This document shows, piece by piece, positions 3,410 through 60,400 of a stretch of 64,000 nucleotides of DNA (position 1 is the first letter of the stretch; each line of letters opens with the position of its first letter). Source of the DNA: Amoebophrya sp. A120. Taxonomy: Eukaryota; Protista; Dinoflagellata. The DNA lies in the NCBI GenBank assembly GCA_905178155.1, contig CAJINV010000004.1:8988417-9052416 (forward strand), in the 5' to 3' direction. Under the pieces are notes generated by a model. That model did no database searches. It had not been told where the DNA came from and saw only the letters and a program-made list of their open reading frames with translations. The position numbers and the translations under genes are program-made.

Positions 3410-6400
3410 ATGAGCGTCACAAGAAAAGAGTCTAATTCTCCTCCTTCCACCAGGGAAAGGCAAATCCTGGAATTTTGGGTTCCGGAAAGCGAAGGTGATC
3501 AGACGCAGGTGACTTTGTATACGGCCTCAAAATCTGAGTGCAGATACCGGGCTCGGACAACCAGGCAAGACGAACTGCCAGTCGGGGCTCGGACGCTCGA
3601 GGAGATGGTTAAATTAGCGGAAAACTCGATCGAGGCGTTCAGCCGCGCGACAGCAGACCTGAGGCTGGAAAGCGGGCGCGATGGCGCACAGCATGCGGGA
3701 GATACGGCGGACGATGCGTTGCAGTTGCTGGAGTATGTGATCCAAGCAGAAATTGCTTGGGAAGCAAACGGGGAAATAAGGAAGTGTATGATTACTCAAC
3801 ACTACCGCGAGCGAGTTTCCGCTGCACGCGAGGGCTTCAATGCTGCGGTACAGGAATTCACGAGAGTATGAAAGTGCACAACTCCCCCTTCCCCTCATTT
3901 GTCATGCAAAATAGAAATACCCAATCCAGATCCACCCTTTGCCTCTTTGCACTGTTTGCATCACAAGTTCTGGTAGCCCAAATAGCACTACAACCCTGTG
4001 CAAATTTGTCATGCAAAACCGGCATGCTTGCTGATGCTTGTACTGCCGTTCATGCTATACAAATGAGGGGAAGGGGGGGCTGTGCATTGTTATAGAGAGC
4101 CAAGGAAGACCAAGACGCCCGGAATAACCCCATTGTTGGCCGGGCGAGAGCATCAAGAGCGAGTTCTTCGGGTTACTCCCTTTCATCCGACAATAGAGAA
4201 GCTGCGAAGGTCCAGGGGGCCGCGTATGGTCCGGAGTCGAAAATAAACGGCCTCGCGCCGTCGAGCTCGTCTACATTTCGAAGAACAAGGACAGAGCGTG
4301 GTCGAGACCGTAGAGGAAGAAGTGCAGACTCGGATGGAAATAAAGTAGCGACCAGCTCGTGGGATAGGAAAACAGCCGATGATCGAGATAGGAAAACAGC
4401 CGACCGAGGTGAAGGAGGGCGCGAGCGAGATCGAAGGAGCAGTGGGAGATCACGCAGTGCCCGACGCAGAAAGCGAAGTAGCAGAGCGCGCAGTAGACGC
4501 GCCTCCAAGTCGAAGACCGATCGAAAAGCCGCATCACGGTCACGGTCACGGGATCGAGCGGTGTGGAAGCGGTCGGTCGAGGCCCCTCAACAGGGGACTG
4601 GGTTGCTGACGGGAGCGGATGGGAGTGGTAAGTGTATTTTACTTTCTACCTTTTTTGTCGAGTAGCGATGGAGATAAAGCAAAAACGTCATCCAGTTTTA
4701 GAAAACTCGCTGGGACATCTTTTGATCCTCCTCTACATGATTATTACAGGTGCACCAAAAGCAAAACAACTTTCTTCTTCATCAAGTTCGTTGCGGCGTT
4801 CGTACAACACGTCAGCCAAGAAAAGCGAACGGTTTTTGTCGGAGGCGGAACAGGAGCGTGCAGTCTTCATCAACTGGCCCATGCATTACGAGCACGCCGC
4901 CGTCTCACCCGCGGCGGAGGCCGATCACGACTGTATTCGGGAGGAGCTGTTTCGCCGGGTCGGAGGAGAGCATCGCGTCGTAGACTACTATTGCCAGGAC
5001 GAGCACGCTGTGGTTGCGGTGTTCGCTGACGCAGCGGACGTGGAAAAAGTACTTGAGGCGTCGCAGCGCCTGAGTTTATTGGATCCAGAGTACCAGGCCG
5101 ACGCTTTTTCTTACAACCGTGATCGAGCCGCGTCTTCTGCACCTGTTCCGAAGCACGATGCTGGGGCACGGCAATCTGGCTCGTCCGTTCAGCAAGCCGC
5201 TGGAGCTGTTTCCGTTTCATCTGGTTGTGACGTGAAGGAGAAGGAAAAGGAGCAGGACGAGCAGGAGAAAGCAAGAGCAACCGGCAGCAGCAGTGCGCTA
5301 GTAGGAGCCTCTGCCTCCCAGCTAGTTGCCAGAGGCGCTGCCGCGGGAGCCAGTAGCAAAGGCGAAGCTGAAGAAGAGCCACTGGCAAAGCGCAAGAAGA
5401 CCGCTGAGAAGAAAGGCGGAGCCCTAGTAACCAAACGGAATAAGGCAGCTGGGGCGGGGCCTGCGAGTGGAAAAAACGAAGAAAACAACCCGTCCTCCTC
5501 GGCTTTAGGGCGTAGCAAAAGCAAATCGACGCGGGCGGGCGCTTCGTCGTCAGGCAGCGGCGTGCTATGTATAGTGATACAACTCTATGTAATACTAATT
5601 TCTTCTGCAGTAATTATAGAGGCCTTGAGCTACTAGTATTACAAATGCGGATTTCATCTCCTCCTCGTGGCAAGATCTGCATAATATAAAATGAACCAAA
5701 AATTATGTCTCGAAAACGAATAGGCGCCGGCGCGGCATCGAGGCAGACGGGTACGTTAACGGAAGACCTGGCGCAGCAAGTACGGTTGAAAGTTGAGGAA
5801 TTCGTTTTCACCGTTGGCGTAAAGAAGTTGAAAGCCATATAACCTGCTCAGGTGTTACAATCTGAAGCGTTGCAATAGAATATGGAATTTGTGTTGCAAA
5901 ATCCGCAACATCTGGCCTACCCCCAAAGGAGCGCGCATGACAAGTTTCGGAGCCCCAAACCCCATGAGATTCTGACGAAATTTGTATTGCGAAAAGCCCA
6001 AGTCTCTGTATTGTAAAGAGGCTGTTCATGCAAGACAAATTCCAGATTGTATTGTAACGTTTGAGATTGTAACATCTGAGCAAGCCATAAGCCAAGTGTG
6101 CGGAGCTGGGCGTTCGATTGCCGGAACGCACGTCACTTTTACGCGTGCGCTATCAAAATGAAAAATCCCCCGTCCCCATATTAAAACGGAAATTTGTGAT
6201 GCTGATTTGTGGTCAAACATCGTCTTTGTCTTGCATATAGGGTCATAGGAGCCATTTTACGCATTCCAGAGCAAATCTGTCATGCGCTTTCGATATCAAA
6301 TGCAAAAATGTCTGGGTCTGGAAGAATGCAACTTGTAATGCGTATTTCAGAACACAGAAAAGTCTCTCATGCATACGTAGCAAAAGCAGCCACTTTTTGT

Positions 6401-7025
6401 CAGCAAAATAGGGGACTTGTCATGCGGATTCGGCATTGCGGAAGGTTCTCGAAACCTGTGATGCTAGAGCTTCCATGCCAGACCTTCTGTGTCATGCAAA
6501 AACAGCATGAATCTTCCTTTCCAGACCCAGACATTTTTACATTTGATATTCGACTATTGCGAACCTGTACCTGTTTGCCATGCGCAATTGCTAGCCTTCT
6601 GCATACCCAAACAGGCCAAGAAAATGCACCCACGCACCTTCTGCAAGACAGATCTGATTTGTGTACGCAAATCCAGCATCAGAAACTTCGTTTCGATATG
6701 GGGAGGGGGGACTTTTCCTCTCAATATGCGCGCGTACGCGCTGCAGAAATGGAGTAAAACCTTGAAGACAACTGATCGGCCATCTCTACTCACGCTCGAC
6801 GAGTTGCGTCGGCGAATCATGGAGATTGGGAAAACCTTGATTGGGCGTCTAAGTGACCTCGAGGCACTTGAGGAGGCGGGGGCAGAAGATGCGCGGCTGG
6901 AAACTGCCCGCGCGGAGTTGAAGGCGGTGTGGGAAAAATTTGATACCATTAAAAAGGTGACGGATTCATACATCGAGGCAGAAAATCTGCCCAGAGAGGA
7001 GAACGAGGAGGGTTCTCAAAACTGA
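3410..7025 (+). CDS. Paralogue c: helical N-terminus, RS/RD-rich region, RRM-like domain, SAP-like C-terminal domain
   Basis: Frame restored by removing introners 3867-4094, 5838-6089, 6151-6726, a GT-AG intron 4628-4749 and a probable GC-AG intron ~5560-5723. Joins read EFTRAKEDQD, KKLKAKCAELGV, LLRVRAYALQKW. Confidence 0.65.
3867..4094. mobile_element. Introner, family F
   Basis: TIR TATGAAAGTGCACAACTCCCCCTTCCCCTCATTTGT; 5-bp direct repeat GAGAG; excision restores frame. Confidence 0.9.
5838..6089. mobile_element. Introner, family E
   Basis: TIR TATAACCTGCTCAGGTGTTACAATCT; repeat AGCCA. Confidence 0.9.
6151..6726. mobile_element. Introner, family D, carrying a nested family A copy
   Basis: TIR TATCAAAATGAAAAATCCCCC..CCCCATA; repeat TGCGC. 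Confidence 0.9.
6294..6548. mobile_element. Introner, family A, nested in the family D copy
   Basis: TIR TATCAAATGCAAAAATGTCTGGGTCTGGAA; repeat TTCGA. Confidence 0.9.
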
Positions 7026-7632
7026 AAAACTTTTGTACAACTACTGCAGGAAAAGGGAGCAACAAGAACGTAAGCACGCTTGTGTACAACTGGTCGCGAC
7101 TCATCATGAAAAGTGTGAAGCTCCCCCTGACCGCTCGGACTCGCGCCCCTGCGGCCTTTAATTTCGCAGCGAGCAACCAAGTAGCACTAGCCGGCGTGGC
7201 GCGGATTATCGATCCCGCAGTAATTCAAACGTGCACACGCGGCCAGGCTAATTTTCGTCTTCAGTTCGTTGGATGCTTTGCACTACTACCACAAAGTGGC
7301 AATTTTTGTCCTTATAATTTTTTTTTTGAAGAATGGTAAATGTCAGGCTACGCATGCAAAGTATGACTTTCTTCGGCAACAAGCAATAAAGTATGATTTT
7401 CTTCGGCACCGAGGCGCACAACTAAACCGGTATACAGTGGCAGTCAGGCCGACCTAAGTCACAGCCGAGCGAGGACCACGCCCTGACTACGGGAAAAAAT
7501 AGAAAGAAATTTTTTGTATTTCCAATTCCGACTTAGCGCAGCACAAGACGAATTTAGACTTGTTACCTAATAGCATTAGCATTTTCTTTGTTTTCGTAGA
7601 AACACAGCAGTAGAAACACAGCATCTGTCATA

Positions 7633-10600
7633 ATGAGTGTCCGTTCCCAAGAAGGGCCTCCGAATGGTGTGGGGGATGGGAGTAGGGAGGACGACGAGGG
7701 GCATGAATCTGAGGACCCCGACTCATGTCAAGAACATACAGAGGACGATCCGGAGGCGGAAAGCAGGTACCTCCAACTGTATATAAAGATTCCGGACGTC
7801 GAGCCCGAGCTGCAGGAAAAATACGCCGCGCCCTTCAATGCCGGCAGCCGCGCCGAAACCGCTTGGCAAGAGTTGTACGACGACGCCTCTTACCAGGTGC
7901 AAAAGTGTCTGGCTCTGGAAGATTGCCAGGTTTGTCATGCATTTTTCGCATAACCTTTACCTTAACCCGTGAAGATGCCTGTAATGCATGACCTAGCATC
8001 ACAGATTTTCAAAGGGCCTTCTGATGCGTATTCCGCATGAGAAACGCCCCCTCCGTGTAGCACAAACTGAACTCCTCTTGCTGGCCATGCGATACAGATT
8101 ACAGTGGTTGAGGGGTAAAAAAGGTCATGCAATACAGATTTTTTTTACCTTCCAAACGTATTATTGTCACAAATTGCAACCTTCCAGACCCAGACAGTTT
8201 TGCATTTGATACCTCTGAGGAATTGGACAGATTGCTGGGCGAGGAAAGCGGTCTCGAATCTATCTACAAAGGCACCCGTCTATCCTGTGCAAAAGTATCG
8301 CACTCGTAGTAATTGCAATTATGCATGACAAATCTCTTTCTCAACGTAAATTAGCACTACAAATTGAATTTGTAATGCTGGGCTAATTTGTAATGCAGTT
8401 TATACTAGTACGACTACAATACTTTCGCAATGCATACCGTCGGGCCCCCGAGGTGGTGGAGGCGTTCACGAAGGATGAGAAGGGCCGCGACTTCCTGGCA
8501 GCCGCGCTGCGGAGGCGTCCCGCCGCCCTATACCTAGGCGAAAAAGTGAAGGCCACCGTCCACGCCCTGCCGCTGGATTTTGACGCGCTTGAGCCGCTGC
8601 GGCGTTGCGGGTACGCTGCTGACGACAGTGAGTCCGCGGTCTCCACCCTCGAGCGCGCCGTGCTACGCGGCAGCTCCTCCTCCTCGTCTTCTTTATCGCG
8701 CGACGCCGGCGCGTTCCCGGAAGATGACGGCGGCCGAGAGGCACTTGGCTGCCTCGCCCGGGCTGCCGAAGAGCAGCTGCAGGCGTTCCGCGAGGCGTTA
8801 GAGCAGTGCGCACAGCAATTCGGTGCGCCGGGTGCGACAGATTTCCTACCCTCATTTGCCGCGAAGATGGAAGAGAGAGTGCTGGAAATGCAAGAAGAAA
8901 TTGCAATCCACGAGTCCCGGACCAAGCACGCTCTATCCCAGGTCCCGAAGGTGGAGCCCCCGCCGGGCGACGCAGGTAAGCGGTCAGCGTGGCTTTTGTT
9001 AGAGATTCGCCGCGCTCCCTACTTAAGTAGCGACTTTAATACTTCGTATTGCTTCAGCATACCAGATCCTTCCCACTTCGTTCATTCCCCGGGTCGCATG
9101 CTTTGATATCGGAAACAAAAAAAGAATGAGAAAGAGATAAAAGGAGCAACTCATCTAACAGCGCAGTGTCGTACAGCCGCAGCTAGGAGCATATAAAAGC
9201 ATTCAATTTGATGATCACAGGTCGCACCTCAAGTTCCAAGTTAGCTCCGCGAGGCGGGAGAGAGCAGTCGGACGATGAAGTAGAAAAACGAGCTGCTCGT
9301 TCGGAACAGCAAACGGGTCGTGATGAAGAGCGGAAGACGACGAAGAATATTACCGTGAGTGCTCCTATCGCCGCTCCGGCCACAAGAGGGACGTCCATCA
9401 GCAACGCCAACAAGCCAACTACCTCTACTTCCAAACAGGCGGCGCTACCAGAGTCTTCACCAGCAAACCGCCTCAACAGCGGTCTTCCGCTGGCAGGGTC
9501 ATCTACTTCAGGCACAATTCTTGCGGGGGCTTCCTCTACCCGACCGATGAAGCGACATCAAGCGCTTGGTGAGAGTGGGAGTGGAGCGGAAATGATCGCA
9601 GTAGACGAATTTGACGCACCAGCTTCCAAAACGAAAAAGTCCAGGCGTGTGGACGGGCAGGAAGATAAAGACCCTCTGCCGAAGGAGCTCTCGACGAAGC
9701 TTCCAGAAGATGAAAACAGAGCCACCTCCGCCTTGAGTTCGACAGTATTGGAAAAGAAGAAAAAGGACGCGGAAAAAGAAAAACAAGCCAGCTCAAGAAG
9801 TAGTGCAGCTACAAGAACAGGTTTGCGTTGTATAATTTGCGTCTTTTGCTGCAACATGAGTGCTTGTTCATCGACTATAGGTTTTCTGTTGTCGGAGTCG
9901 GTGTAAGTAAGTATCTACATCTAGTGCTCAACATGCCACAGAAAAAGAGACGCGGAACCGCAAAGTTCAAAATGCGCTTAATTTGCGAATTGATGTTTTT
10001 ACACCAGGTCCTCACGATCATGCCCTCGATCGTCCGACGGGAGCCACAAGCAACTCTCGAGGAGGAGATCACGACGACAAACCCCCGCCCCGAAGACCCG
10101 CGGCGCTCTCGAACGACTGCAAATCCAAGGTCGAAGAGGTGCTCATGTTGTCCAGCAACGAAGCGAGAGAACGTTGCGCGAAACATGCCGTGGAGATTGT
10201 TTTTGGAGAGCGCACGGAGATATGTATGGCCCGCCTTCTGAAGCACGAGTTTTCATCCTCGAAGCCCAAAGAAGGCGCTATGAAATGCAAATATGTCTGG
10301 GTCTGGAGGAATGCAAGACGTGTCATGCAGATTTTCATTTTCCATGCCACATCCACATGAAGTTTGGAATGCAGGACTTAGAGTGACAGGGTCTTCGACG
10401 TCTCTATCATGCCTATCCTGCATGACAAACTGCCTCTAAACTTGTTCAAAAGTGTACAGCTTTTGGTAGTCATGCACCACAAATTTTTGTACGATCCAGA
10501 CTTAGCAATAGCATGAAAAGTTCGCGTCCTCCCAAGACCCAGACATATTTGCAATGCATAAGCGCGAAGCAAGTGCAACAACCTCCGCGGGTTCACAGCT

Positions 10601-10890
10601 ACCTTCTGCAGCGGGCGCGAGCTATGGTGCATCAGGAGCTGCGGGCGAGAAACGGTGGCCCGCCGACCGATTCGGCGCCCGCGGCCGCCCTCGATCCGAA
10701 GGCCTACGCAGAGCGGGTTCGCAATGCCGGATCCTTCGAAAAGAAGGCGGCTCAGTGGAAGCTGGTCTACGATTCTTTGTGCAGCCTCGATAGCCCGGAG
10801 GCTGGTGCTTCTCGCAGGAGCACAACAAAGGCGAAGCCTTTAGGCCTTCAAGGCGCCGGTGACCAAAGCACGAATAAAGCTGGAGGCTAG
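7633..10890 (+). CDS. Paralogue d: N-terminal domain shared with paralogue f, coiled coil, S/K-rich linker, SAP-like C-terminal domain
   Basis: Introners 7891-8211, 8281-8436, 10279-10560 and GT-AG introns 8976-9220, 9821-10007 give one frame (DDASEELDRLL, GTRRAPEVV, KEGAKQVQQ). Confidence 0.7.
7891..8211. mobile_element. Introner, family A
   Basis: TACCAGGTGCAAAAGTGTCTGG...CCAGACCCAGACAGTTTTGCATTTGATA; repeat CCTCT. Confidence 0.9.
8281..8436. mobile_element. Introner, family B
   Basis: TIR TATCCTGTGCAAAAGTATCGCACTCGTA; repeat CCGTC. Confidence 0.9.
10279..10560. mobile_element. Introner, family A
   Basis: Family A TIRs; repeat GGCGC/AGCGC. Confidence 0.88.
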
Positions 10891-11717
10891 CGGAGATGTT
10901 CCGGCTTGCGCATCTTGTTCTGTCGTGGCCTTATTTTCATCCTGACCGGCGCAGCCGCTGCAAGATCTTTGGAAAGTGTGAAGAGCTGTAGTGTCAGAAA
11001 GACAACAGGAACAGGATGAAAAAGGTCAATATCCCGCCACTGATTCAGATTTTAGTGGTGGGTGGCCGCAAGGATCATTGGATGGGGTTCTGCTTGAATC
11101 AAAGAAGGTTTAGGCTACATCTTCATATTGCGACGCGTTGTAATAAGTTGGGCATTTCAGGCACCACTGCTTTTGTCCGTTAAGTGTCCAACATTTCAAT
11201 TCCAGGCTTGAGTTTGTTTTCTAACGAAGCTCTGATGTTCATGTTGCAGCTAATGCAAATTATGTTCGTTCTCGCATCATGCCATGGCATGCTTTGTTTT
11301 TGGTCCTGAAAATGTAGAAAGGTGAGTGCTTGCTCGAATGCAACTGGTTTCTGCGTGCGCGGCGTATCAGACTTATTCTTGCCTATAATCTTCTGCCGAC
11401 AGTGGACAGGAATGAACCCGCAGGAGGAGCTTAGCTGCTACACGTTTATGGTGCTACGTCAAGATGCCGACGTTACAAACATAGACATACAAAGCACATA
11501 ACTTGTACACAAAATCGATTTAAACATTGTTTGCGTTCTGATTACAAGGTCTTTATTCGAATTCCCGCACTGTGACGAGCTCGAGAACTAGGTGTAGAAG
11601 ATATCATACAAATACAATTTTCTTCTGTCGTGTGACTTGTTTTTGCTTCAGCTTAAGTTAAAAAATAAAAATGCCGTGACACAGTAGAAACCGATCTGCG
11701 TCTTTCTAGGTTCAAAA

Positions 11718-14700
11718 ATGACGACAGACAGACGAGACGACGATGCGGAGCGGTACGCGATGTACGACTACGAAGACAAGGAGTATTCTATTTAAAACGT
11801 ACCCACCCCATAGTTGTAATGCGAATCTGCATGCTGAAAATGTTTCTCATGCGGAGCCCCATGAGAAGCATTTTCTAATCGTGTTTTGCAACTTGTCATG
11901 CTCCAATCAGCATGGTATGCTAGATCTGTGATGCTGCTGAGCTAGCTCAAACAGCACTACACTACGAATCCAAATTTGTCATGCAAAACAGCCAAAACTT
12001 GTGGATTTGTCTAGCCGATTCCCCATCTTGACTATGGTGTGGGGACGTTTTTACTCAGGATAAGGAAGCAATCACCGTTAAGGTTCCCCGGCTTTGTCCC
12101 GCCTCGTCCTCTGCCGGCTCCGGTGAAAATCCCGCCGTGGATGACCGCGTCTTTGACGTTTATTGGAAGGCCACGAAGTACCAACCGCGGGGTAAGATTG
12201 CCCTTTCCGCCAACCGTGTGCGGGAGAACGCGATTAGCATGGGCGCCCTGTTGAAAAAATTCGAAGTCGCTATAACGCAGTTCGACAATGCTGTGTGGGT
12301 TTTCAAAAATTGCAATTCGTCGGCCAACCATGGCGCGCCGGAAGATGTGGAGAAAACGTTGGAGTGGTTTGGCGACTGGGCCTTGGACCTCAAGCAGTTT
12401 GTCGGGTACATCCTGGAGGAGGATGGGAAGAACTCGCACCAAAGCCTCAGTGAAGCGGATTACAACCAGGCCCGCGGTATGGATTGCAAAAATGTCTGGG
12501 TCTGGGAACTTGTGATGCTGAGTGGCGAATCACGAGGACGTCACAAGTGACGGCTCACCATGACAAACTGCGTTTTTGCATGACAGAAAAGTGGAGCTTT
12601 TGGATAGCGTGCATGACACACTTGAGAGTCAGGGTCATGCTAAGCTGAGCATGACAAACTTGCGCGCTTCCAGACCCAGACATTTTTGCATTTGATACGC
12701 GAGTTGAAGCTCATGTTTGAGGAAGCGGCCAGGGACAAAGAGTGGTTAGCGCTCAAGGCCCGGCGGAAAGCAGGTGTCGTGGTGGACGACGACGGCGCTG
12801 TGGAAAAAGCTTCCGGCGGCGAGGCCAGCGCGGGTGCGGGTGCGGGGCAGCCAGGATCTTCATCCGACGACGGTGTTCTAGAAGTACCCGCAGCAACAAG
12901 ACACGGCACGGGCGGTTGCGAGATCAGAGGTGTGTCAACTAGCTCTACATATTTCTTGCTGTGCAAATCCAAATGCAAAAAAGAAGACCATCTTCTAGGA
13001 GTCGTCGCGTGAAGAAATCAATGTACTATCAGTTCCTGCTTTTTCCTCGTTTCTTTCTCTTCAACGTGGTAACCCAGCCCTCAACTTTACGTGCCTGCAA
13101 AATCGAAGGGCCTGCAGGAAAATTTATCTATATCCTTCCACAAAGGCCAAGATAACACTTGGCACGCAGAGTGAGTGACTCTCCTGTCACTCCGCACACA
13201 GCAGTACTGGGTGCCCGTCCACTCATTAGAATGAGAAAAGATAATGTTTATCCCGGACACGCACAAATATGATGATGATGATGATGATGTAAGTTTCTCA
13301 TTCGTCATCTTGAAGGTGCGTCTACTTCGAGCCAGTGTAGAAGTGGTCCGAAGGGGGAACAACAAGACACGAAAGCTGTAGGAGAAGGCTCAACTGAAGT
13401 GAAAGGTCGTTGTGGTTTTCCAGTACGAAAATTTTCGCTCGAGAACGAGCCATCTTTGCGAGAGAAAGACCCTGGGCGCCGCGAGAAGGAGGGCCGTTGT
13501 TCCCATCCGCGTAAGAAGACGGCGAGCAACACTAGGCACCACCAGAGGGGGCACGGTAGGTGGAACAAGAGCAGGGACTACACCAGAGACCCCCGTGGTC
13601 GGGACGACCGCTACGCCGCCGACCGCCGGCGCCGATCGTCTGGTCGAGGAGATAGAAATCGTGACTTCCATCATGGCGGCTCATCGAGGAGGCGAAGCGC
13701 CGGAAGGGGCAGGTCTCGCTCACGAGAGGACCGGGATAAAGACAGAGACCGGAATAGAGATCGCGACCGGGACAAAGATCGAGATTGGAACAAAGGTCGC
13801 GGCCGGGAGAAGGGTCGTCGACACTGGGGTTCGAAAGATCGGGATTGGCGATCGCGAGACCGTTACCCCGACCAGGGTCGCCGGGATGAGCGAGACAGAG
13901 ATTGGCGAGACGACCGAGGCTGGGGCCGTGACGCGGGTGACGCAAGGAATCGGGATCGCGACAGACGAGGGTGTGATGATGACAAAACCGGCGGGGCCAA
14001 GCCTCGGGACCATCAAAGCCGCTGTGGTAAACCAAGTCCGCGCGACAAGCGGAAGCGGTCCCGTGAGGAGCGCCAGCCTTCCTCGAAAGCAGCCGTCGCG
14101 GCAGGAGGTCCTGGCCGCTTACTTACTATGTTATCTTCTGCAGTCGCTACTTGTACTTCTGCTGCAGCCTTGTTTTCTGATGTTTCACTGTTCTGCCGGG
14201 TCGTTCTTTTTACGTAAGATGAAAAAAATACCGGAGACCTGTAGTTGCTTTGCAAGCTAGATAAGGATCGCCACTGTTAAATTGACGCTTTTGTCCCTCA
14301 CCATGAACAGTTCGAGATCGCGATCGTGGCCAGGAGACGGAGCGATGCTGGAAGCTGACGCTTACGAGCCTGTGCATTCTCCCCCCTGGGAAGGCAGAGC
14401 GAGCAGTTTACGTGAGACTCCCAAAGGACTACTTCGCCGCCAGTACTTCATCCAGCGATGCCCGCGACCTACGCATCAGGGAACACGAGTGCATCTGGCG
14501 GGAGCTGTCATCTCGCACTACGGACGCCGAGCGCGCGATCAAGGAGTATTTCTGTGTGTGCGACAAATATGTCGTCGTCGTGTTCAACACCCCTGCGGAC
14601 GCACTGCGAGTCCTAGAAGCCCCTGTGACGCGCGTCGTGCTATCCGATAACATCTCGGTGGCGGACGTGGCTCCTTACAGTCGCGACAGAGCCCGTGGGA

Positions 14701-16492
14701 ACAAGTTGCCCAGCGAACCAAAGCCGGCTCTGCCACGGCCCGCTGCTGTGTCCTCGTCCCCTAGTACTACATCGACCGCAGTGGTAGTACAGGGGGCCGT
14801 ACCGAAGTCTGCGGCACGGGTAGTAGCGACTGCGAAAGGCGACCTCCCGGCTGCGAATAAACCACAGGACGCCGCATCTTCGGTAGTCATTCCGGTTGCT
14901 ACTGGTTGCACGGCACCTAGTTGTACGGGACCACCAGCATCTTTAACCGGTGCCGCGAGTAGACCTCGTCCTGTCGACCACGGCCGCGCCCCTGTATTGA
15001 ATGAAAGCGAAGGCGGTGGGCGTGTAACGCGGCAAAAGCAAAAGCTAAAAAGGCCGAGATCGCCCGAAGGGGCCGTGCCGCTTTGCGACGAGCAGCCGCA
15101 CCAGGGCCAAGAAGAGACTGCAAGAACTTGTCACGAAACTACGAGGCTGGACGCGCACGCGACTGCGGCAAGAGCTGGTGAGCAGCCCACGAAAAGGGCA
15201 GAACGCACCCTCGCAACATTTATATTTGGCGACAAACGACCTGTAGAGGAAGCACAGCGCGTTGATCAACTAAAAAAGACGAGCCCAACTAGAACAGTTC
15301 CCAACAAAAAACCGTCATGCGAGAGGATAAACTACGATGAACTCGGTCTCGGGCAGGCATGCAGCAGCACCGAAAGAACGGCGGACACGCTGAATGCGCC
15401 TGCACCGGCTTGCGAGAAAGTAACGCCACTTGTCCCCACAGCAGCTTGTGCAGCTTCAGTGGGCATCAAAGTCGCAGGCCAGCGCGCTGCTCTTCAAGAG
15501 GAGGTGGAGGTTCCGCAGAAGTCACAACGCGGGAATAACAATAAAGCGAAGGCGATGAAAACTGCTGCCGGACCGCCCCTACTTGCAGGTGGAGGTGCGA
15601 AAAGGCCCGCACTAGCAGAAAAGCAGAGTGCTGTCGTTCAGCATCCTGCGCCGAAGCGGAGAAAGGCAGGTAACAAAGGCTCCGCGGTGGCCGTCCAGCA
15701 GAACAAGAAAGCAGCCGAGGGCGGGGAGGTGCCTACTACTGCAGCATCAGCCTCGGCCGTTAGTCTACAAATGCCAACTGATTCCGGGATCGCACGGAAT
15801 AAGGCGAATTTGTCCTCGGCGACATCATCGTCCACCTCCGCTCAAGTTCTCGGTAAGGATGAGATTATTTCTTTGTACATGCAAAAGTAAGAGAAGTCAT
15901 TACTATTGGTTTGCAATTGGTGTCAACATCATGCTGCAATGCCGCAAGAGTGTGGTCTTCAGGTTCAAAATGAGTTGCAGAACCAAGCCAAAAAACCAAC
16001 ATAAAAATTTTACATGAGGACGATTTCACAACAACTACGACAGGAAAAATACAAGCACCAGGAACATCAACATTAGCAAAACCACCCCCACCCCCAGCCA
16101 TTCCCACGGGCCCGGATGTCCAGCAGAAGGTCGACGAGTGGTTGGGCTTTTCGTTGGCGAGAATTCAGACCGTTTGCAGGGGCCTCGGCGTATCTCTGGT
16201 CGAGGGTGAGCTGAGGGTTTCCCTCATCGCCAAAGCGCTGCGCAAGTGGGAAGCGGCGGACCAGAAATGCCGCGCGGGCGTGTTGTACTGCCTGCACCAC
16301 CACGCCGCGCAACTCGCAAGCAGAATCAGCGGGCAGTGGGGCGAGGTGAAACTGCGCGAGGACCACGCGGAAAAACTTGTGCAGGCGAAACAATTGAAGG
16401 CACAGTATGAGAACGCATGGAAAGTGATCAATGATTTCAGAAGCTATAGTTCCTCATCTGCAAAAGCAAAGCCAGGACAAAATCAAAAGTAG
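11718..16492 (+). CDS. Paralogue e: helical N-terminus, long RD/RS-rich region, RRM-like domain, SAP-like C-terminal domain
   Basis: Introners 11784-12062 and 12478-12697 join ATG 11718 to ORFs 12137 and 12686. Downstream ORFs 13399 (RD-rich), 14412 (YFCVCDKYVVVVFNTPADALRVLE) and 16142 are collinear with paralogue c. Internal canonical introns only partly resolved. Confidence 0.55.
11784..12062. mobile_element. Introner, family C
   Basis: Right end GGGGACGTTTTTACTCAGGATA; repeat AGGAG/AGGAA; nearly identical to 35925-36204. Confidence 0.9.
12478..12697. mobile_element. Introner, family A
   Basis: Family A TIRs; repeat CGCGG/CGCGA. Confidence 0.88.
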
Positions 16493-42051: not shown

Positions 42052-42683
42052 GAATGAGGAAGGATATTGTAGACTTTTGTGCGTCGAAATCTAAATCAAT
42101 TTACCAAAAAGGGCAAGAACACGCAGCTCATTCGGTCAACGATTATGTCACCGTCACCAGGTGCTCGCTTTGACGCCTGTACATCGCAGAGGCACATACG
42201 TTGTATTTTTTTACGTTGTATTTTTTTCAAACTTCCGGAAGATGCAACCGACGGGCGTTCTTGAGGGATAGTGACGGAGTTGGGCTGCATGCTGGTGTGA
42301 GAAACAGGGTTTCATCACATGATTGGCCGCACCTGCAAATAGGTTGCGCACGATGAGAAGAAATACCTGAGAGAAAGTTTCACCCACTCTTTCTCATTAT
42401 CCAAAACCGATTTACCTTGCAAAGAAATGCAAAGTGGATGAAAAAGAAATAGAATATCAAATATCATAATCAATTTTTATTTTTTGAGACAAGAAATCCA
42501 TTGAAAACCAATCGCCTAGGGCAAACTTGCTAAGACGAACGAAGAACAGCTTGCGGGAGCGCGCTTCTTGCGTTTCACAGCTTCGGTTAGGTGCAGAAAA
42601 GTAGCGTTGCCACATGTAGTTGAGAACTTGATAGTCGGGTCTTACAGTGTCCGCGTGTAGTTAGTTCGTTTCATTGCCCATAG

Positions 42684-51600: not shown

Positions 51601-53103
51601 CGACAGCAAGTTGTTTCTCAGCCCGCGCCACAGGGCGCGACCCAGCCGCAGTTCCTCCCGCTGACCACGAACGACCTGATACCACGACCTGGAGTACATG
51701 TACAACCAGCAGCAGCGCCAACGACGACGACGCGCAATGTCTCTAGTTTTTCCCAGCGTTTCATCGATCCTTTGAATTCCCCTCCTTTGTCCAAAACCGG
51801 CGCTGCGCAGCAAAACTTTCAAATCGGCCCGCTCCCGCCAATAAACCCTGACCAGCTGTTCAGCCCTCGCGTGGCGCACTTACGGGCAACGTCGCCGCAA
51901 AGACTAAAGGTGGATGTGAAAAGCGCAGTCTCTTTGCCGCTGTCACCGAGACCGAAGTCACCAAGTAATGTGGTCAACGGTTTTGCGAGTCCGAAGAATT
52001 TGTTCGCTGGTCCTGGTTCAAATTCCGTCTCACCAGAAAAAGAAGCTTTAGATCCTGCGGGCAATGGCATTCGAAACCAGAATACAAATGTCGCGATGTC
52101 GGCGGCGCAGCTGCTCCGGATGCAGAAGGAGTGGGGACGATTGGCAGCCAGTACTAGTAGTTCCTCAACTATGCGGCGTGAGCAAGTGGTGCAGGAGGTC
52201 GAGGTAGCAGCAAACCAGGGATCTTCACAGCAGAAAATAAATGCCAGGGCGAACTCCCTTCCCATCGATTCCCCGAGAACGGTGATAAAAAAGGTCGGAA
52301 AGGCAGCGGAGGCGGCGAGTGCCCAGATTCAGGAACGAATGATCAAGGCCGGAGCTGCTACGACTTCTCCGATCATGCTGAGCCCGCGGAGCAACAGCAA
52401 CTCCCGGAGCCCGGTGAGGGACGCGGCAGAAGATGCAGAGAACAAGGAGAACCAAAACTACCGCAGCCGAAGCGAGGGGGGACAGCACGGACGAACGGAG
52501 AATAATTCTTTATCGCATAACTTCTACACCGCCTCCACTAAAGCGAAAACAACTCTGCAACAGCTCGTCTTTGTCGGCCCGCCGGCGCAGCAGCGGGGGT
52601 TGAGCCCTCCTAGTAGGCTGGATTTTTCCGGGATGCAAACGTCGCCCCAATTGCGGACCCGCGCGCGTCCAGGGACGATGGTGGCAAGTAGTACTAGGAA
52701 CAGCAGCACGGCTACTAGTACCAGGCCGGCGATCAGTGGTGCTGGAAATGGGGTTGTAGGTGGTAATGGAAACGCTGCTACAGCTACTTTTCCGCCGACG
52801 AGCGACGGGCCGGCTCCTGCACTGGCCGCTCCGCAGCAGAGAACTGGGGCGAGGGTAGCAGTGATGCAGAGCACCATGCCAGCTTTGCAACGCAGGGCGA
52901 ACATCCCCGTCGCTGCACCCCCAAGTGCTGGACTACAGAAGCGTGGGCTTGCAATGACGGCGCCCGGAATTATGACGAGCAGTGGAGCTGCAGTGTCTGG
53001 TGGTGCTGCACAGGGAAACAAGACGCGGACTCGGATTATTCGTGCCACAGGGACCCGACGCTCGTCGGAACTGGACCCGGTCCCGGAAATGGACGAAGTT
53101 TAA
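42684..53103 (+). CDS. Very large low-complexity S/P/Q/R-rich protein (~3077 aa), unknown function
   Basis: GT-AG introns 44004-44132, 46110-46268, 48012-48165 and introners 48706-48962, 49511-49730, 50562-50813 join ORFs 42684, 44496, 46242, 48082, 48707, 49718 and 51205 into 9234 nt. Confidence 0.7.
48706..48962. mobile_element. Introner, family A (begins TGT)
   Basis: Repeat AACAG/AGCAG. Confidence 0.88.
49511..49730. mobile_element. Introner, family F
   Basis: Repeat TCACA. Confidence 0.92.
50562..50813. mobile_element. Introner, family A
   Basis: Repeat GGACC/GGGCC. Confidence 0.9.
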
Positions 53104-54482
53104 AGCGAAAAAGCACGATGAACAAGTTGAACTTTTGTACTGAACAAAGAAAAAATTCAAAATGCTGAATGAGACAGAATCTGAATCTAAAACCAATGCG
53201 GTAGTATCATGTGGTGAATACCAACAATGTGAATGTAAACGAATCAATAGTACAATGCTTCAAATGCAACTTTTACATCATTTCAGAACGCACTGCAAAC
53301 ATCGAATATACAACAAATGAACCGGCATTAATTATCTGAGTTTTTGATTTAGTTTTTTTGGGTACAACAGCCATCTTCTATCAAGATGCTACCCTGAAAT
53401 TGGCTTCAGCTAGTGGTGCCCTACTTTCTTTTAAGACCTTTTACACTGCATGGTATGTAATTGTTTCACATGTATTAAAAACGCAGAAATGTTTCACATG
53501 TAATTTCGCAATCGCAAGTCATAGACCTGGCGAAACAAGACGAAATATGGTGCTCTTTAAAACAACAGCACAAAACTTGTGTTTGTACGATAAACCATGA
53601 ACATGTGCTGCTTGAATTTTTACAGTCCCACGACAAAGACTAAAACAAGGAATGGGCAACGAGATCATATCTCGTAGAAACAGCACGACGAGGACGAGGT
53701 CCTCGTCTTGTGTGAGAAACTGCTACAACAAGTACAAGAAACTATTTTGGAACGACCCTACGTACCACCAGAGAGCGTGAGTCCTCGTCGCAAATGTGAG
53801 CGTGATGAACTCTCGGAGCGCTATCAAACTGCAAGGGAGGGAATCAAAAAGCAAAAGAACTGAGAGACAATTGACTCGAGGAAACAGGAGCGAAAATTGC
53901 ATCATCAAAAATGCTACTTCTGTCGTGGTTCGTTTTTGTCGTGACAGGACCCTATTCGAATTTATTTTCGGTAAAAACTAGTAATAGATTTTCATTTTTC
54001 TTCTCTTTTGGCGTACCTTACCAACTCAAGTGTATTGACTGATTTTTTTGCAGCATGCTTACTCTCGTCCCAACTCAAGAAAAACATGGAAAATAAAGCC
54101 TTTCAACCTGTTCTTACAAGTTCGTTTTTGCACCATCTTCGTTCTTCCTTTTCTGCAGCACAACAACGACCCGGCTTTTTTTCATCGCTCAACGTCCACG
54201 ACATCGACGCAACTTTGTGCACCTGCTCCAGGATCACCTCCTCTCTCAGCGTGGTCTCTTTCCAGTCTCCTCAATTACGGATGGGGGTACTTGTTCCTAC
54301 AGTTGGCAGCCCCGGGTTAGAAGAAGTAGCACCAGGAGTAGCAAGACTCGTGGGTGACCACGACTGGCCGCGTTGTAGTACCAGCACGTGAGCAGGCGGC
54401 CAACACGGTTGCGTGACAAAAAACCTCATATACGACGTCTCCCTCATCTCGATAGAATCCTCCACCGTCAGTGCAAGTAGCC

Positions 54483-57400
54483 ATGGGCAAAAAGAAGAAG
54501 GAAGAGCAGACCAAGGACGGCGAGCCGCCGTTGCAAATCGGCGAATCCTACCGCGGGCTGCCGAGAGAGGTGAATGACCAGCTGCTCCGCGAGGCCGTCC
54601 CAACCGCCGAGGAGCTGAGGCAGCACGGCACGGCGTTCGCGGATACGAAGCGAGAGCAGGTCCGCGCGGAGCACGGACTCAAGTCCGTGTCCGATGAGAA
54701 TCGAAAATATGAACTGCAAAAGTATCGTACTAGTAGTAATTGCAATACAAATTAGCTCAGCATGACAAATGGAATTTGTCATGCTGTTTTGCCTTCGGAT
54801 GGAGATTTGTAATGCAAGACTTGCATTTATACGAGTTTAACGCTGGACCAGGCGGTGTCAAATTGAATTCAAAACGAATTCAAAATGAATTCAAAAAGTG
54901 GGCACTTTTGAAATGAGCCACATTCCGCGATGCCCTGGACTCTCAGCGGTTGCTGCCCCAGCAGCTTTTGGCGACCTGGTAGCGCCGCTGCCTGCTGGCT
55001 CATTGGCTCGGGGGACGGGCTCAACCCGAAGGGCTGCTCCGCACCGTACTAGGAGTGTTGCTGAATGATGACCGAGGGCCAGAGCGATGCGCTCTGGTTC
55101 ACTTTCCGGCATACGCCCGCATCGCCTGCGAAGGGCGACGGCGCTCTGTCGTGGCTTACTATTTCGCGCCACTTTTGTGTAGCGCCTGTCTGACACTGGT
55201 GGCGGTTTAGTCATTCCCGCGGCCGGCGCTATTATTGGCTTTGGCACTCCGGGCAGGAACACTACAACAGGCCCGCACGGGCGCAGAAGGGGGCTGCGCT
55301 TGTTTGCGGCGCTAATTTGGGATCGGCGCAACAATTCTAAAGTTCATCGGGGAGTGGATCTCAATTTCAAAGTCCATCCGATCGACCGGCCCCAATTCAA
55401 ACTCCATCCGGACGACCGGCCCCAATTCAAAACCCATCCGGACGATCGGCCCCAATTCAAACTCCATCGGGGCCATCGGGGCAAATTCAAAACTCATCCG
55501 AATTCTGTCCGAATTCCGTCCGAATTTTGTCCCCTACTTGGGTTCTTGATTCGGACGGATTCTGACAGAATTCGGATGGATTTTGAATTGGTGGGGGATG
55601 GGATTTTGTGGTCCGGGCCACCAGAGTTGTGCCTCCAGTCGACTTCACCTACCGAGACCAGCCTGGGCGATCTTGGGTGGCTGACCGCATTGGGAATCGC
55701 GGCCGGGGATGGCCTCGCCCCTGGCGGCATTTTGTCCACTAGCGTCACATGCAATATGCACAGGCTGACTTGCTTGAGCGCTCGCCGGGCCAAGCCGCGA
55801 CCCCGACACCGAGGCCAGCCATGCTCCTAACCGCATGCGCCGGCCCCCGACGGTTTCCGGCATTTTTCCGTGGTTGGGCAGGGTCTTCTCTTATTACACC
55901 GGCAGCACCCCCCTGGCGCCGAGCCGGGTTTCAAGTCTCGCAAGTTAAGGCATGATAACAAACTTCGGCCGCCGGTCGAACCAAAGCGCGTTCGCCCCAT
56001 TTCCCGGAAGCTCCTTCGCATGGTTGGATCCAGTTGCCGTTTCGCGCCTGGTCCGCTGGACCAAGCACAGGGCGCAGCGTTCGTGTGAAAGCGGCTACAG
56101 GCCGTTTTCTATGGCTGTCGCGCGCCGCATTTGTTTCGCCCGATTCGCCCCCTCGGAGGGGCGTTTTTTTGAAAATGCCAACTTTTTGAATCCAGTTTGA
56201 ATTCCGTTTGAATCACGATTACACTCCGAGCGGTCTAGAGTTAATACGAGTACGATACTTTTGCACAGGATAGAAAACGCGACACTGCGATGTACTACCA
56301 GCCGATGCCCTATGGATGTGTCAGGATCGAAATTAATCGACAAAGTCGAAAAATTTGTGATGCATAAAATGTAGAGCACTGAAGGCCGGTATTGGGGAGA
56401 AGGCATCTGAGACCGATTGTAAGCCTGTTTAGGCGTATACAATGTGCTGCCAGAGTAGCATGACAGGAGCAGCCTTCTTTGCCCAAACAGCATGACAGAC
56501 TGGATTTGGGTGCTCCCGAAATTTCTCATGCGCCACTTGGAAACTGAGGCTCCAACTGGCATCGATTTTGTGCATCACAAGTTTTTCGATTTTGCGAATT
56601 TCGATTCTGACGCTTCCATATGCCCGGGGAGGACGGCGCGGTTAAGCCGGTGCCGACGCAGGGAGAAAAAGTGGACCCCAGTACGGAGAAGGGAAAAGCG
56701 GCACCGCCAGCGAAAGCCCCGTCAGGGACGAACAAGATAACACCAAAGCCCCTCGATCTCCAAGCGGACTCCGTGCAAGCCCCGTTGGAACCAGAAACTC
56801 CCATGGCGGACCGGATCAACGCACACAAATCCGTGTCCCGGGCGACCACGCCGAAGGGGGAACACAAAAAAATCTCCGAAACCGCTCTGGATTCCATCTC
56901 CCAGCAGCAGCATTCCGGCGCGAAAAAAGGGGTTTTGAAGAAAGAGGAGTCCAAGGGAGCCAGTTCCGATCACGGTACCTCAGAGAACAAAACGGGGACC
57001 GGGGGCAGTTCCAGTTTCCGTGCTATCAAGGAGCGGACCGCAAGACTGAAGGAAGCCCGGAAGCAAGCCAGGATAAACACAGGGCTGACGGCCAAGGGAA
57101 GGTACGACCGGGTCATGCACCAGAGAAACGAAGGGAGAAGCTTTCGGAAGGTAAGATTTAGTAACTTTTGTATAGAGGTGTACACTTTTACGAATACTAC
57201 CCATATCGAAATAGGCAGTACCTCGGCAAAACATTTGTAAACCACAAAATAATGCCAACATCAGGGAATGCCTATTCTGTCCGAGACCATTGAGTTCACC
57301 CTCGAGCGCATGAAGGACCACTACAAAGAGCAGGAAGATGCGGGAAAGATGACGAAACGCGCCCTCCGGGAGCGGCAGAAGGGCATCAAGAAGGAGAAGA

Positions 57401-60400
57401 TTGACAAGAACAGCCTGGAAAAGATGTTCATGACGTTTCTCGCGGTCTTCAAGGCCATCGTCTTCCACCATGTGTTTCTACGCATGGCAAAAGTATCGTG
57501 CTAAGTAGTAATTGCATCACAAGTTGTTGGGTCGGCATGACAAATAAAATTTCTGATGCGAATTTAGCTTTAAGAAAGAGATTTGTATTGCATCTCTGCA
57601 ATTCCAATTTACAACTAGAACTACTGCGAGCACGATCCTTAATTTGCAATGCATAGTTTCCGAACATAAATAACAACCTCGGCATGCGGATGATCTTCGA
57701 GCGGATTCTGCCCTGCATCGAATTCCCCCTCCACTGGCTCGCGGTGTTCTGCGAACCGCAGTTGGGGTACAGCATGGGACAGATGTGTCCCTACAACCCC
57801 GGCTACGACGAATCCGCCGACGCAATCGACCCCATCGAGGGCATCCCGAAGGGCGAGCCGCTCGTGGACACGTTTCCCTTCGCGGCGCCGGTCTTTGGCG
57901 TGCTGTTTCCGTATCTCTGCGTGTTCTGGGTGTGGCGGAGGGCGATTCCTTATGTTCGATTGCGGATTTTGTCGAACAAGTATCAAACTGAAAAATGCCG
58001 CCACCCCCGAACTTGGGAGCATTTGTATTGCAAACCTTTCCAAATGAAGCAGTCGCGTTCTTGTATCTATCAGCATCACAGATTTTCAATCGTGAAGAGC
58101 AAAAATTTGTATTGCAAAAGACCCCAGCAAGAGTGGCGCTTGTCATGCAAGTGATGCGATACATGACTAGACTCTGCATCAGAAAGATTCATACTTCTTT
58201 CATGCATGACAAAAAGTTTTCATTTGGAAACTTCGCGTCACAAGTTTTTGCGACTTTGGGCGTGGGGGCATTTTTCACTGTAATAACAAACACCTGGTGA
58301 TCGGAATGCTTCTCTGCCGGTCGGTTCTTATATCAAATGCAAAAATGTTTGGGTCTGGAAGAATGGGCGATTTGTCATGCAGCTTTTCCATGACCCATGA
58401 GGTCTGGAATGCAGGGCCTAGCGTGACAGATTCTGCGCGATCTCCCTCATGCCTATCCTGCATGAGAAACTCCCTCCCGACTTGGTCAAAACTGGACGAC
58501 GTTTGGGAATCATGCAACACAGATTTTTGCATGCTTCAGATTTAGCATGACAAGTTGGATTCTTCCAGACCCAGACATTTTTACATTTGATATCTCACCG
58601 TGAAGCGCAATCCGGCCTCGGTGCAAGTCGGTATGGGCGTGGATGGCGACGACGCGATGCTGACCACGTTCTCCTTAACCTCCTGGCTGATAATAGGACT
58701 GCCATTAGTGTATTTGATCGACATATCCCACGAAAAAACTGTTTCACTGTGATGGTTTTGCAAGATCCGCATCACAAGTTTGCTACACATGACACAGGAA
58801 ATTTGCCATGCGCGCATTTTCCATAGGGGAAAACACGCTTGAAACTCCAATGTTCTATGCAGGTGTAGCAAGACAGATACTTCTGTGCTCCATTCTATGC
58901 ATCACAAGTTCACAGTGAAACAGTTTTTTCTTGCGATGCGACACCATCATCTTCCTCTGCTTCTTCCCCTTCCGCGAGCCGCCGAACTTCTATGCAATGC
59001 AAAAGCATCGTACTAGTACAAATTGCATCACAAATTAGCCCAGCATTACAAATTGAATTTGTAATGCTAATTTGCCTTGAGAAAGAGATTTGTAATGCAT
59101 ATAATGCAATTAGAATTACTACCGGTACGATACTTTTGCACAGGATAACTTCCTCGCCGCGACCAAATTCTTCAAGGCGCAACTGATGATGATCTGCGGG
59201 AGCCCAAGTTTCATCCTGTTCGACGTGATCCTGATCACGAGCGAGGGCCCGGGAGGCCCAAGAGAAAAGACCTTCGCGATACTGGGACTCTTGGTCAGCA
59301 TCTGCACGCTGTGGTATTTTATTTTATTCGGCAGTTCCTCTTTCGAATTCGAAGTTGCATCACCATGATCGGCAGCATTGCATGTTTCGTATACAGCTTT
59401 TCCCACCACTTCTGTCCATGCCGCTGGTCGTAATTGCCACAATCGAAACACCAGTACGGAAATGCTTAAAAACTTGAATTTTTCCTATCAGGTTCACCAT
59501 CCTCCGCGTTTCTCAAGTTGCGTACCGCAACCTCATCACTATGTGGGAGGTCATCCTGCTCACCTCCCGCATGGGCAAGGGCACCGGGGGCGACTCCATA
59601 TCCGCGGTGAGCAAAGCGAAGCAGGCGGACATCGCAGCCGCGGCAGCGAGGATATTCCCGCCCTTTTTCATCGTCATGGCGCAAATGAAAATCTGCAGTC
59701 TGGAACACGAGAAATACGTGATCAACGAAAACGAGTTGGCGCAGTTGGGCCACTGTCTGTTCAACAACATTTACATCAAGCACCTGGTGATTCCCTCGAC
59801 CTGCTGCAAGAACCTCGTGAAAGCGGGCTACACGCTGTTCGACGCCATCGAGCATTGCGTGATAAAGATGGACAACTGCGTGCTGGAATCCTTCAACTGG
59901 TTCCCCATCATATGAAAGTGCACAATAACCGAAACCCCCCTTCCCCTCCGTGCTCGTTTGTCATGCGGAAGACTGAGTTCGTCTTCGTTGTAAGTGTAAC
60001 CAATAGATGGCCGGCGCCGGTTTTGGCACTCTACACAACATGTTGACCATTCATTATTCCATGCAGTCCTAGTAGGACTGCGGTCGATCAACATGTGCGG
60101 CTGCAGCTTGTGCTTGTTACTAGGCCTGAATGAAGGGGACGTGGGGGAGCTGTGAAATCTCATACGTCAAAGACATTCTGTACAAGCCAAACCTCGTTTT
60201 CACGATGGACCGATACAGGTACGAATGCTGATAAAGAAGCTCTTCATGTTGCTGTCAATGGCATTGCAATGCAGAGGCTTTTGGATATTTTTCATTTCTT
60301 GTTTAAATCCGACCTCGGTCTTCGAAATAGCATGACAGGAGAGCAATGCATCGGCCCAAACCACCACCATAAAAATCAATACACTCAACACCACAGGTAC

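What the first reader, a model, noticed from the sequence alone, without database searches (positions are those of the whole stretch)
5838..58938. Removal is independent of element orientation
Seen: all host genes are on +, but the same family occurs both ways round: C (35925 vs 36250, same gene), G (30531 vs 58724), E (5838 vs 22563/26496) and B (TATCCTGTGC end left at 8281, 41709, 60606; right at 28384, 54708, 58991). Known: spliceosomal signals (donor, branch point, acceptor) are directional. Inference: recognition relies on symmetric features (TAT/ATA ends, TIR stem, flanking repeat). This points to hairpin-guided RNA cleavage and ligation, or to precise DNA-level excision like ciliate IES removal.
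Basis: partly seen in the sequence, partly recalled or inferred. Interest (0 to 1): 0.85.

Follow-up and report, generated by a model that had tools for sequence, protein, structure and literature searches.

The report
Parasite introns spliced either way round
In the marine parasite Amoebophrya, already-described transposon-like introns are missing from assembled transcripts whichever way round they sit, and the cut falls at a fixed offset that follows the direction of transcription, which likely means a relaxed spliceosome reads the same signals from the element's mirror-image ends rather than the DNA being deleted.

Summary
Observation confirmed. The window holds 47 TAT...ATA inverted-repeat elements with 5-bp target duplications; families B, C, D, E and G occur both ways round in + strand genes. 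A 100% match names the genome Amoebophrya sp. A120: these are the introners of Farhat et al. 2021. Transcript contigs lack 27 of the 47, always element+5 nt, in both orientations. Five junctions with imperfect duplications all fit one cut, 1 nt before TAT and 4 nt after ATA, in transcript direction, the same for both orientations of family D. In 287 further oriented elements, orientation is unbiased (128:132), but end conservation is directional: intron +2 T and +3 A never change, the A at -7 changes once, and their mirror positions change 10, 2 and 9 times. So removal is directional and very probably at RNA level; symmetric ends simply offer the same signals on both strands. DNA excision is unlikely. 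Best reading: a relaxed spliceosome using an N|UA donor and a branch-like A at -7, with no AG (0.6); a hairpin nuclease-ligase remains open (0.3). The system is known; this cut rule was not in what I read.

The parts
5838..6089 (.). Family E element, opposite orientation to 22563 and 26496; perfect 5-bp duplication
   Evidence: removal not tested in RNA
8281..8436 (.). Family B element, 'left' orientation
   Evidence: removal not tested in RNA
20017..31148 (+). Host gene: 2129-codon frame after removing 17 elements plus one duplication each; has a DXD glycosyltransferase region (PF04488)
   Evidence: one 5616-nt contig spans 21972-31419
21720..21967 (.). Family F element with a decayed duplication; fixes the cut uniquely at 1 nt before TAT and 4 nt after ATA
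   Evidence: pieces end 21718 and start 21972; allowed register 4 only
22563..22814 (.). Family E element
   Evidence: removed by gap arithmetic, 898 = 898
23165..24854 (.). Five elements: D 23165-23416, B 23632-23784, D 24030-24280 (reversed), B 24351-24499, J 24542-24854
   Evidence: same gap arithmetic; orientation
26163..26424 (.). Family D element, reversed relative to 58331 and 28577
26496..27393 (.). Family E element carrying a nested insert of about 650 bp; removed whole
27482..27803 (.). Family K element; offers a frame-neutral GT..AG reading (element+2) that the contig length does not use
   Evidence: GT..AG list; 810-265 = 545 observed
27855..29672 (.). Four elements: G-like 27855-28066, B 28384-28532 ('right'), D 28577-28836, D 29417-29672
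29814..30739 (.). Two elements: K 29814-30135 and G 30531-30739 (opposite to 58724)
   Evidence: gap 528 = 528 in both runs
35019..36949 (+). Host gene of 223 codons with five elements (B 35129-35277, D 35305-35559, two C, D 36614-36887)
   Evidence: NCBI protein P0001 identical over 216 of 216 aligned residues across four junctions
35925..36204 (.). Family C element
36250..36528 (.). Family C element, opposite orientation, same gene, 45 bp downstream
38513..38663 (.). Family B element, 'left' orientation; stop-free and in frame if retained, yet removed
   Evidence: skip 156 = 151+5
41709..41869 (.). Family B element, 'left' orientation
   Evidence: removal not tested in RNA
48706..48962 (.). 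Family D element, reversed, TGT start, duplication mismatch at position 2: register 2-5
   Evidence: joint 48702>48965
49511..49730 (.). Family H element
   Evidence: joint 49505>49731
50562..50813 (.). Family D element, reversed, mismatch at position 3: register 3-5
   Evidence: joint 50559>50817
54708..56272 (.). Family B element ('right') with a nested insert of about 1.4 kb; removed whole
   Evidence: joint 54702>56273, skip 1570
56311..56620 (.). Family J element
   Evidence: joint 56304>56620
57151..57264 (+). Canonical GT..AG intron removed in the same contig as seven elements; fixes strand and spliced state
   Evidence: joint 57148>57263
57479..57655 (.). Family B element ('right'), TAC start
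   Evidence: joint 57473>57656
57981..58285 (.). Family I element, mismatch at position 5: register at most 4
   Evidence: joint 57974>58285
58331..58592 (.). Family D element, forward, mismatch at position 4: register 4-5
   Evidence: joint 58329>58597
58724..58938 (.). Family G element, opposite to 30531, ATG end
   Evidence: joint 58718>58939
58991..59147 (.). Family B element ('right')
   Evidence: joint 58984>59147
60606..60751 (.). Family B element ('left')
   Evidence: removal not tested in RNA
3867..61114 (.). Remaining elements of the same kind: 3867, 6151 (with nested D at 6294), 7891, 10279, 11784, 12478, 18801, 19087, 21061, 59911, 60957
   Evidence: removal not tested in RNA

Best explanation
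These are Amoebophrya A120 introners that transcripts lack in either orientation, cut 1 nt before TAT and 4 nt after ATA in the direction of transcription, and they are likely removed from RNA by a relaxed U2-type spliceosome. Shown: both orientations are removed; the removed length is element+5; the offset follows the transcript; +2 T, +3 A and -7 A are conserved by transcript direction; there is no G at +1 and no AG at the end. Inferred: a MITE-like insertion makes the 5-bp duplication; the left TAT with the last duplicated base gives an N|UA donor (like GUA without the G); the first A of the right ATA serves as branch point; the 3' cut is measured 7 nt from it instead of found by AG; the stem holds donor and branch point together, standing in for the U1 snRNA that was not found in this genome. 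Because each end is the mirror of the other, flipping the element changes nothing, unless one end has drifted: then only one orientation appears.
For: Ten element joints, the same in two runs, all element+5, in contigs that also lose a GT..AG intron; 17 more by pieces or gap arithmetic. Allowed registers at 5 informative junctions: {4}, {2-5}, {3-5}, {-1 to 4}, {4,5}; only 4 is common; the mirrored value 1 is excluded at 4 of 5, including forward and reversed D copies. End changes in 287 oriented elements: 5' positions 1/2/3 = 0/0/9, mirrored 3' positions = 10/2/1; 0 of 20,000 random-strand draws as extreme; 0/0/10 and 9/4/1 of 313 when oriented by neighbours only. TAC starts occur 6 times and the mirror GTA end 0, although GTA would keep a U.G pair; ATG ends occur 6 times and the mirror CAT start 0, so neither stem pairing nor strand-biased mutation explains it. 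All 18 top non-canonical types in Farhat's Table S4 have T at +2, in both strains. That paper found 83 of 89 spliceosomal proteins and U2, U4, U5, U6 in A120, but no U1 (section read). Precedent for spliceosomal handling of TIR-derived non-GT/AG introns in Fritillaria (passages).
Against: No lariat or branch point was observed. +1 G (87 of 287) and terminal AG (20 of 287) are at background, which a normal spliceosome needs in both steps (established knowledge). The bases before the -7 A fit a branch consensus only partly (C at -8 in 36%), and that A is paired in the predicted stem. One element lacks the -7 A (L031). In 19 predicted canonical introns only 8 had A at -7, so a shared ruler is not shown. 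Euglena's non-conventional introns also have a directional code with an offset stem, and its authors suggest non-spliceosomal factors (passages), so direction alone does not prove a spliceosome. The offset rests on 5 junctions from two samples of one study, in contigs whose RNA nature is the tool's guess. Some end variants may be inherited within subfamilies, so the 22 changes are not all independent.
Confidence: 0.6

Rival explanations
1. A non-spliceosomal RNA endonuclease recognises the stem base and its TAT/ATA ends, makes a staggered cut (1 nt 5', 4 nt 3') and a ligase joins the exons, as has been suggested for euglenid and diplonemid non-conventional introns.
For: Strong stems in both orientations (z -9.3 and -8.0); 88% pairing at stem positions 11-28; an RNA hairpin has polarity, so a fixed transcript-directional offset fits; no G or AG needed; U1 not found; Euglena precedent.
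Against: No G.U-over-A.C excess in sense-strand stems (305:321; 107 vs 111 elements), a weak null. The -7 A is kept as a base while its partner changes. The conserved bases match donor positions +2/+3. The lowest-energy fold of the two C copies pairs the wrong ends, yet the annotated protein keeps the short exon between them; co-transcriptional folding could answer this.
Confidence: 0.3
2. Elements are excised precisely from DNA before transcription, like ciliate IESs.
For: TA-rich ends and a retained single duplication resemble transposon-derived excision; the joined form was seen in runs whose kind is a guess; the joined form could not be looked up in DNA runs (table 5b not given).
Against: The offset and the end conservation follow the transcript, not the element or a symmetric cut. 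In the flat-depth run X5 the listed contigs run from exon into element ends and one spans 27855-28066 whole; this may be the source sample and contigs drop rare forms, so it shows presence only. Farhat used RNA-seq junctions against the genome.
Confidence: 0.04
3. Each orientation uses ordinary GT-AG sites supplied by the duplication, as in Polarella or Aureococcus introners, or only one orientation is really spliced.
For: 8 of 287 elements read GT..AG at the inferred register; Farhat reports the repeat structure in 15% of canonical A120 introns.
Against: None of the 10 element joints was given a GT..AG reading; G and AG are at background; both orientations are joined; the GT..AG option at 27482 is not used.
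Confidence: 0.02

Closest known systems
Amoebophrya sp. A120 introner elements (Farhat et al. 2021, PMC7789003; sections 10, 11, 12, 16, other passages and parts of the supplement text read)
   Same: Same organism by a 100% named protein match; inverted repeats starting TAT, seven variable bases, then a run of A; 3-5 nt direct repeats; hairpin proposed to join the exon ends; MITE-like origin; co-oriented genes.
   Different: The text I read calls the borders variable or unknown and reports no clear splice signature; it does not discuss element orientation, a fixed -1/+4 offset, or a conserved -7 A. Its logos and Figs S19-S25 are pictures I could not see and may show part of this.
Polarella glacialis and Aureococcus anophagefferens introners (Roy et al., bioRxiv 2020.10.14.339549, passages; Aureococcus second-hand from it)
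   Same: TIR/TSD transposons that make introns in either orientation, taking splice-site bases from the duplication.
   Different: They use GT/GC/GA..AG sites and so need particular duplication sequences; here the duplication is free and neither G nor AG is needed.
Fritillaria borealis non-canonical introns (review PMC11282704 and bioRxiv 2025.08.15.670264, passages; Henriet 2019 not read)
   Same: MITE-derived, non-GT/AG, attributed to a changed U2 spliceosome.
   Different: Sites there are mostly AG-AC/AG-AT and coincide with the repeat ends; here both cuts lie outside the repeat, inside the duplications.
Euglena and diplonemid non-conventional introns (PMC12501133, PMC12621601, passages)
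   Same: Stem joining the intron ends, flanking direct repeats, cuts at fixed, unequal distances from the stem (3 nt and 5-6 nt in Euglena).
   Different: Different motif (CDG/CHG, purine starting the next exon); machinery unknown there too; no donor-like UA reported in the passages read.
Ciliate internal eliminated sequences (recalled, not looked up)
   Same: Transposon-derived, TA-bounded, removed leaving one copy of a flanking repeat.
   Different: DNA-level, symmetric, needs separate germline and somatic nuclei; the directional offset found here is not expected.

Membership tests
Amoebophrya A120 introner elements | Located in Amoebophrya A120 genes | tested here: met
   P0001, named by NCBI as A120, 100% identical to the window exon and across four junctions
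Amoebophrya A120 introner elements | Terminal inverted repeats starting TAT, 7 variable bases, 3 or more A | tested here: met
   position table; definition
Amoebophrya A120 introner elements | 3-5 nt direct repeat at the borders | tested here: met
   38 of 47 perfect 5-bp repeats
Amoebophrya A120 introner elements | Repeated families, removed from transcripts at non-GT/AG sites | tested here: met
U2-type spliceosomal intron | G at +1 (GT/GC) and terminal AG | tested here: not met
   87 and 20 of 287, both at background; so not a canonical member, though it may work like one
U2-type spliceosomal intron | Donor-like +2 U, +3 purine | tested here: met
   0 changes at either position in 287; one window copy has G at +3 and is joined (48706)
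U2-type spliceosomal intron | Branch adenosine near the 3' end | tested here: inconclusive
   A at -7 kept in 286 of 287, but context partial and canonical-intron comparison unclear, 8 of 19
U2-type spliceosomal intron | Lariat intermediate; dependence on U2/U6 | not testable with these tools
   only contigs cover the locus; raw RNA run X7 laid 17 reads
Ciliate-type DNA excision (IES) | Cut symmetric or fixed to the element, independent of transcription | tested here: not met
   registers at forward and reversed D copies; directional end conservation
Ciliate-type DNA excision (IES) | Element-free genomic DNA in some nucleus or stage | tested here: inconclusive
   listed X5 contigs keep the elements, but tables were cut and contigs drop rare forms
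Euglenid-type non-conventional intron | Stem joining intron ends with offset cuts | tested here: met
Euglenid-type non-conventional intron | N3CDG..CHG N5-6|R code | tested here: not met
   ends are N|TAT..ATA NNNN with no purine bias after the cut (code)
MITE (non-autonomous TIR transposon) | TIR, fixed-length duplication, no coding capacity, unbiased orientation | tested here: met
   (128 same, 132 opposite, 27 unclear of 287)
MITE (non-autonomous TIR transposon) | Cognate transposase; empty orthologous site | tested here: inconclusive
   no orthologous locus among 124 fetched; a 215-aa frame in the nested insert had no Pfam hit

The most novel reading that the evidence does not exclude
Amoebophrya has a U1-less spliceosome that needs neither the 5' G nor the 3' AG: any insertion ending TAT...ATA in a stem is spliced, with the stem placing a -7 branch A beside an N|UA donor and the 3' cut set by distance. 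That makes every exonic insertion of these transposons, at any target and in either orientation, a perfect intron.
Probability: 0.45. Interest if true: 0.85.

Novelty: already known. Interest (0 to 1): 0.52.

Why it matters
The elements and the hairpin idea were published in 2021, with the splicing mechanism left open and the borders called unknown. This work turns that into three exact, testable statements: cut at -1/+4, donor N|UA, branch-like A at -7. If a lariat is found there, it would be a spliceosome working without the two most conserved intron bases, and would explain how tens of thousands of insertions were tolerated in one genome. The rule also removes the border ambiguity in the annotation of these introns. 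If no lariat exists, the same coordinates define the substrate of an unknown RNA nuclease-ligase.

Tried and rejected
Of 489 detected elements, 472 were outermost, 305 had a strand margin of 6 or more, and 18 more were dropped as out of register or unassigned, leaving 287; before that last cut the counts were 1/2/12 and 12/8/2. In the window alone the asymmetry is not significant (p 0.13, 43 elements). One search's joint table was swamped by repeats, so no C joint could be seen. Open-frame length does not single out element+5 for the C gene: a shadow frame gives 300 codons against 223. G.U vs A.C test null. Canonical-intron branch test inconclusive (19 unverified predictions). Fewer duplication mismatches at positions 3-4 (10, 15, 6, 5, 13) not pursued. 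Pfam hit 1 of 18 frames; Rfam 0; motif absent from viral contigs. Earlier scan findings: none. Splicing efficiency by orientation could not be measured from contigs.
Full report
What is there. The window holds 47 top-level elements (plus at least one nested copy) that begin TAT, end ATA, carry about 30-bp terminal inverted repeats and sit between 5-bp direct repeats (38 of 47 repeats perfect). A detector that treats both ends alike recovered 42 of 48 and found none in two shuffles. Removing each element with one repeat copy opens + strand frames of 2129, 1428 and 1227 codons. In the longest, a 1-nt error at any of 17 junctions truncates the frame, as does retaining 16 of the 17.

What it is. 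An exon of the C gene matches at 100% an NCBI protein labelled Amoebophrya sp. A120, and that protein equals my in-silico product over 216 of 216 aligned residues, across both opposite C copies. This is annotation, not new RNA evidence. Farhat et al. 2021 (PMC7789003; sections 10-12 and 16, passages, part of the supplement text) describe A120 introners with repeats starting TAT, seven variable bases and a run of A, 3-5 nt direct repeats and a hairpin joining the exon ends. The position table here is that motif.

Are both orientations removed? On 48400-59250, two runs gave the same 11 joints: 10 elements, each skipping its length plus 5, and one GT..AG intron in the same contig as seven of them. 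On 20900-40800, one 5616-nt contig has gaps of 898, 545 and 528 nt between listed pieces, equal to the genomic distance less element+5 for 6, 6 and 3 elements (for the middle gap the script missed 28577 at its edge, and 810-265 = 545 is my subtraction). Two more skips were read from pieces (253 and 156). Two removed elements (29417, 38513) would be stop-free and in frame if kept, so decay of bad transcripts does not explain their absence. The runs' RNA nature is the tool's guess, backed by the lost GT..AG intron; they are two samples of one study.

Where is the cut? Perfect repeats hide it, imperfect ones do not. Counting bases of the left repeat kept in the exon, the five informative junctions allow {4} at 21720, {2-5} at 48706, {3-5} at 50562, {-1 to 4} at 57981 and {4,5} at 58331. 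Only 4 is common: the intron is one base, the element, then four bases. 58331 is a forward D copy and 48706 and 50562 are reversed (through 26163, 24030 and 29417); a cut anchored to the element would give 1 or 0 in the reversed copies, which is excluded. So the offset follows transcription. At 27482 a GT..AG intron of element+2 is available and frame-neutral, but the contig length says element+5.

Which bases matter? A motif scan gave 121 non-redundant loci, 659,349 bases, with the same families. Host strand came from a codon model (42 of 47 right in the window on leave-one-out; neighbours agree 241 of 245). Among 287 in-register elements, orientation to the host is 128 same, 132 opposite, 27 unclear (sums's rows). 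But the ends are not equal. At the 5' end the T, A, T change 0, 0, 9 times; at the 3' end the mirrored terminal A, T, inner A change 10, 2, 1 times; none of 20,000 random-strand draws is as lopsided. Orienting by neighbours alone gives 0, 0, 10 and 9, 4, 1 of 313. No deeper position differs. In intron terms +2 T, +3 A and -7 A are kept. TAC starts (6) break a stem pair, while the mirror GTA end, which would keep a U.G pair, is never seen; ATG ends (6) have no CAT mirror. The two contrasts run in opposite mutational directions, so strand-biased mutation does not account for them (inference). There is no G at +1 or AG at the end beyond background. Farhat's Table S4 lists 18 top non-canonical types, all with T at +2, in two strains with different repeats.

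How it likely works. The kept bases are those of a GUA donor without its G and an adenosine a fixed 7 nt from the 3' cut, which reads as a branch point with a ruler in place of AG (inference). The stem would hold them 3 bp apart, and its positions 4-8 are poorly paired (45-79%). A120 keeps U2, U4, U5, U6 and most proteins, with U1 not found. I put this at 0.6. Against it: no lariat seen, partial branch context, and no clear -7 A in 19 predicted canonical introns (8 of 19). A stem-reading nuclease with a ligase gives a directional offset too, and Euglena has such an offset code with unknown machinery: 0.3. Against that: no G.U excess in sense stems (305:321), and the best fold of the C pair joins the wrong ends. 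DNA excision gets 0.04: it does not predict transcript-directional offsets or conservation, and listed contigs of the flat-depth run keep the elements, which shows presence only.

Novelty. The system is published, and either-orientation introners are reported for Polarella and Aureococcus. Eight full-text searches and term look-ups in Farhat's text and supplement, two reviews and two introner surveys showed no statement of orientation independence, a fixed offset or a -7 A for Amoebophrya. The library lacks most subscription papers; figures, bioRxiv supplements, Huff 2016, Henriet 2019 and the final Roy 2023 paper were not seen and may bear on this. Verdict: observation confirmed, interpretation partly supported, system already known, with a new and testable cut rule; interest 0.52.

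Noticed in passing
window:54845-56235 (approximate): About 1.4 kb insert nested in B element 54708, with GAATTC-rich ends that look inverted and internal short tandem repeats; a 215-aa frame on the - strand was listed (my Pfam query used the + strand span and found nothing); no match in the fetched loci. Removed with its host element.
   Followed up: partly
window:26680-27320 (approximate): About 650 bp insert nested in E element 26496; a contig of run X1 (depth 6.7) lies on 26805-27353, so unspliced RNA, excised intron or DNA is present.
   Followed up: partly
window:6151-6726: K-like element containing a complete D element (6294-6548) with its own perfect 5-bp duplication.
   Followed up: no
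window:33913-33966 and 35013-35066: 54-bp near-identical duplicate (96%) of the start of the C gene, 1.1 kb upstream; a second 45-bp duplicate links 31455-31499 and 32732-32776.
   Followed up: no
window:35915-36538: The lowest-energy fold pairs the outer ends of the two inverted C copies, which would drop the short exon between them; a natural test of how ends are paired.
   Followed up: partly
window:3316-3631: Inverted-repeat stretch starting TAT without a matching 5-bp duplication; possibly an old element.
   Followed up: no
window:63319-64000: Arrays of 19-, 15- and 8-bp tandem repeats at the window end, perhaps subtelomeric.
   Followed up: no
L018, L045, L064, L071, L072; window:7891, 57479: Recurring TAC-starting end variants always lie at the 5' end in transcript direction, suggesting subfamilies that can be spliced in only one orientation.
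   Followed up: partly
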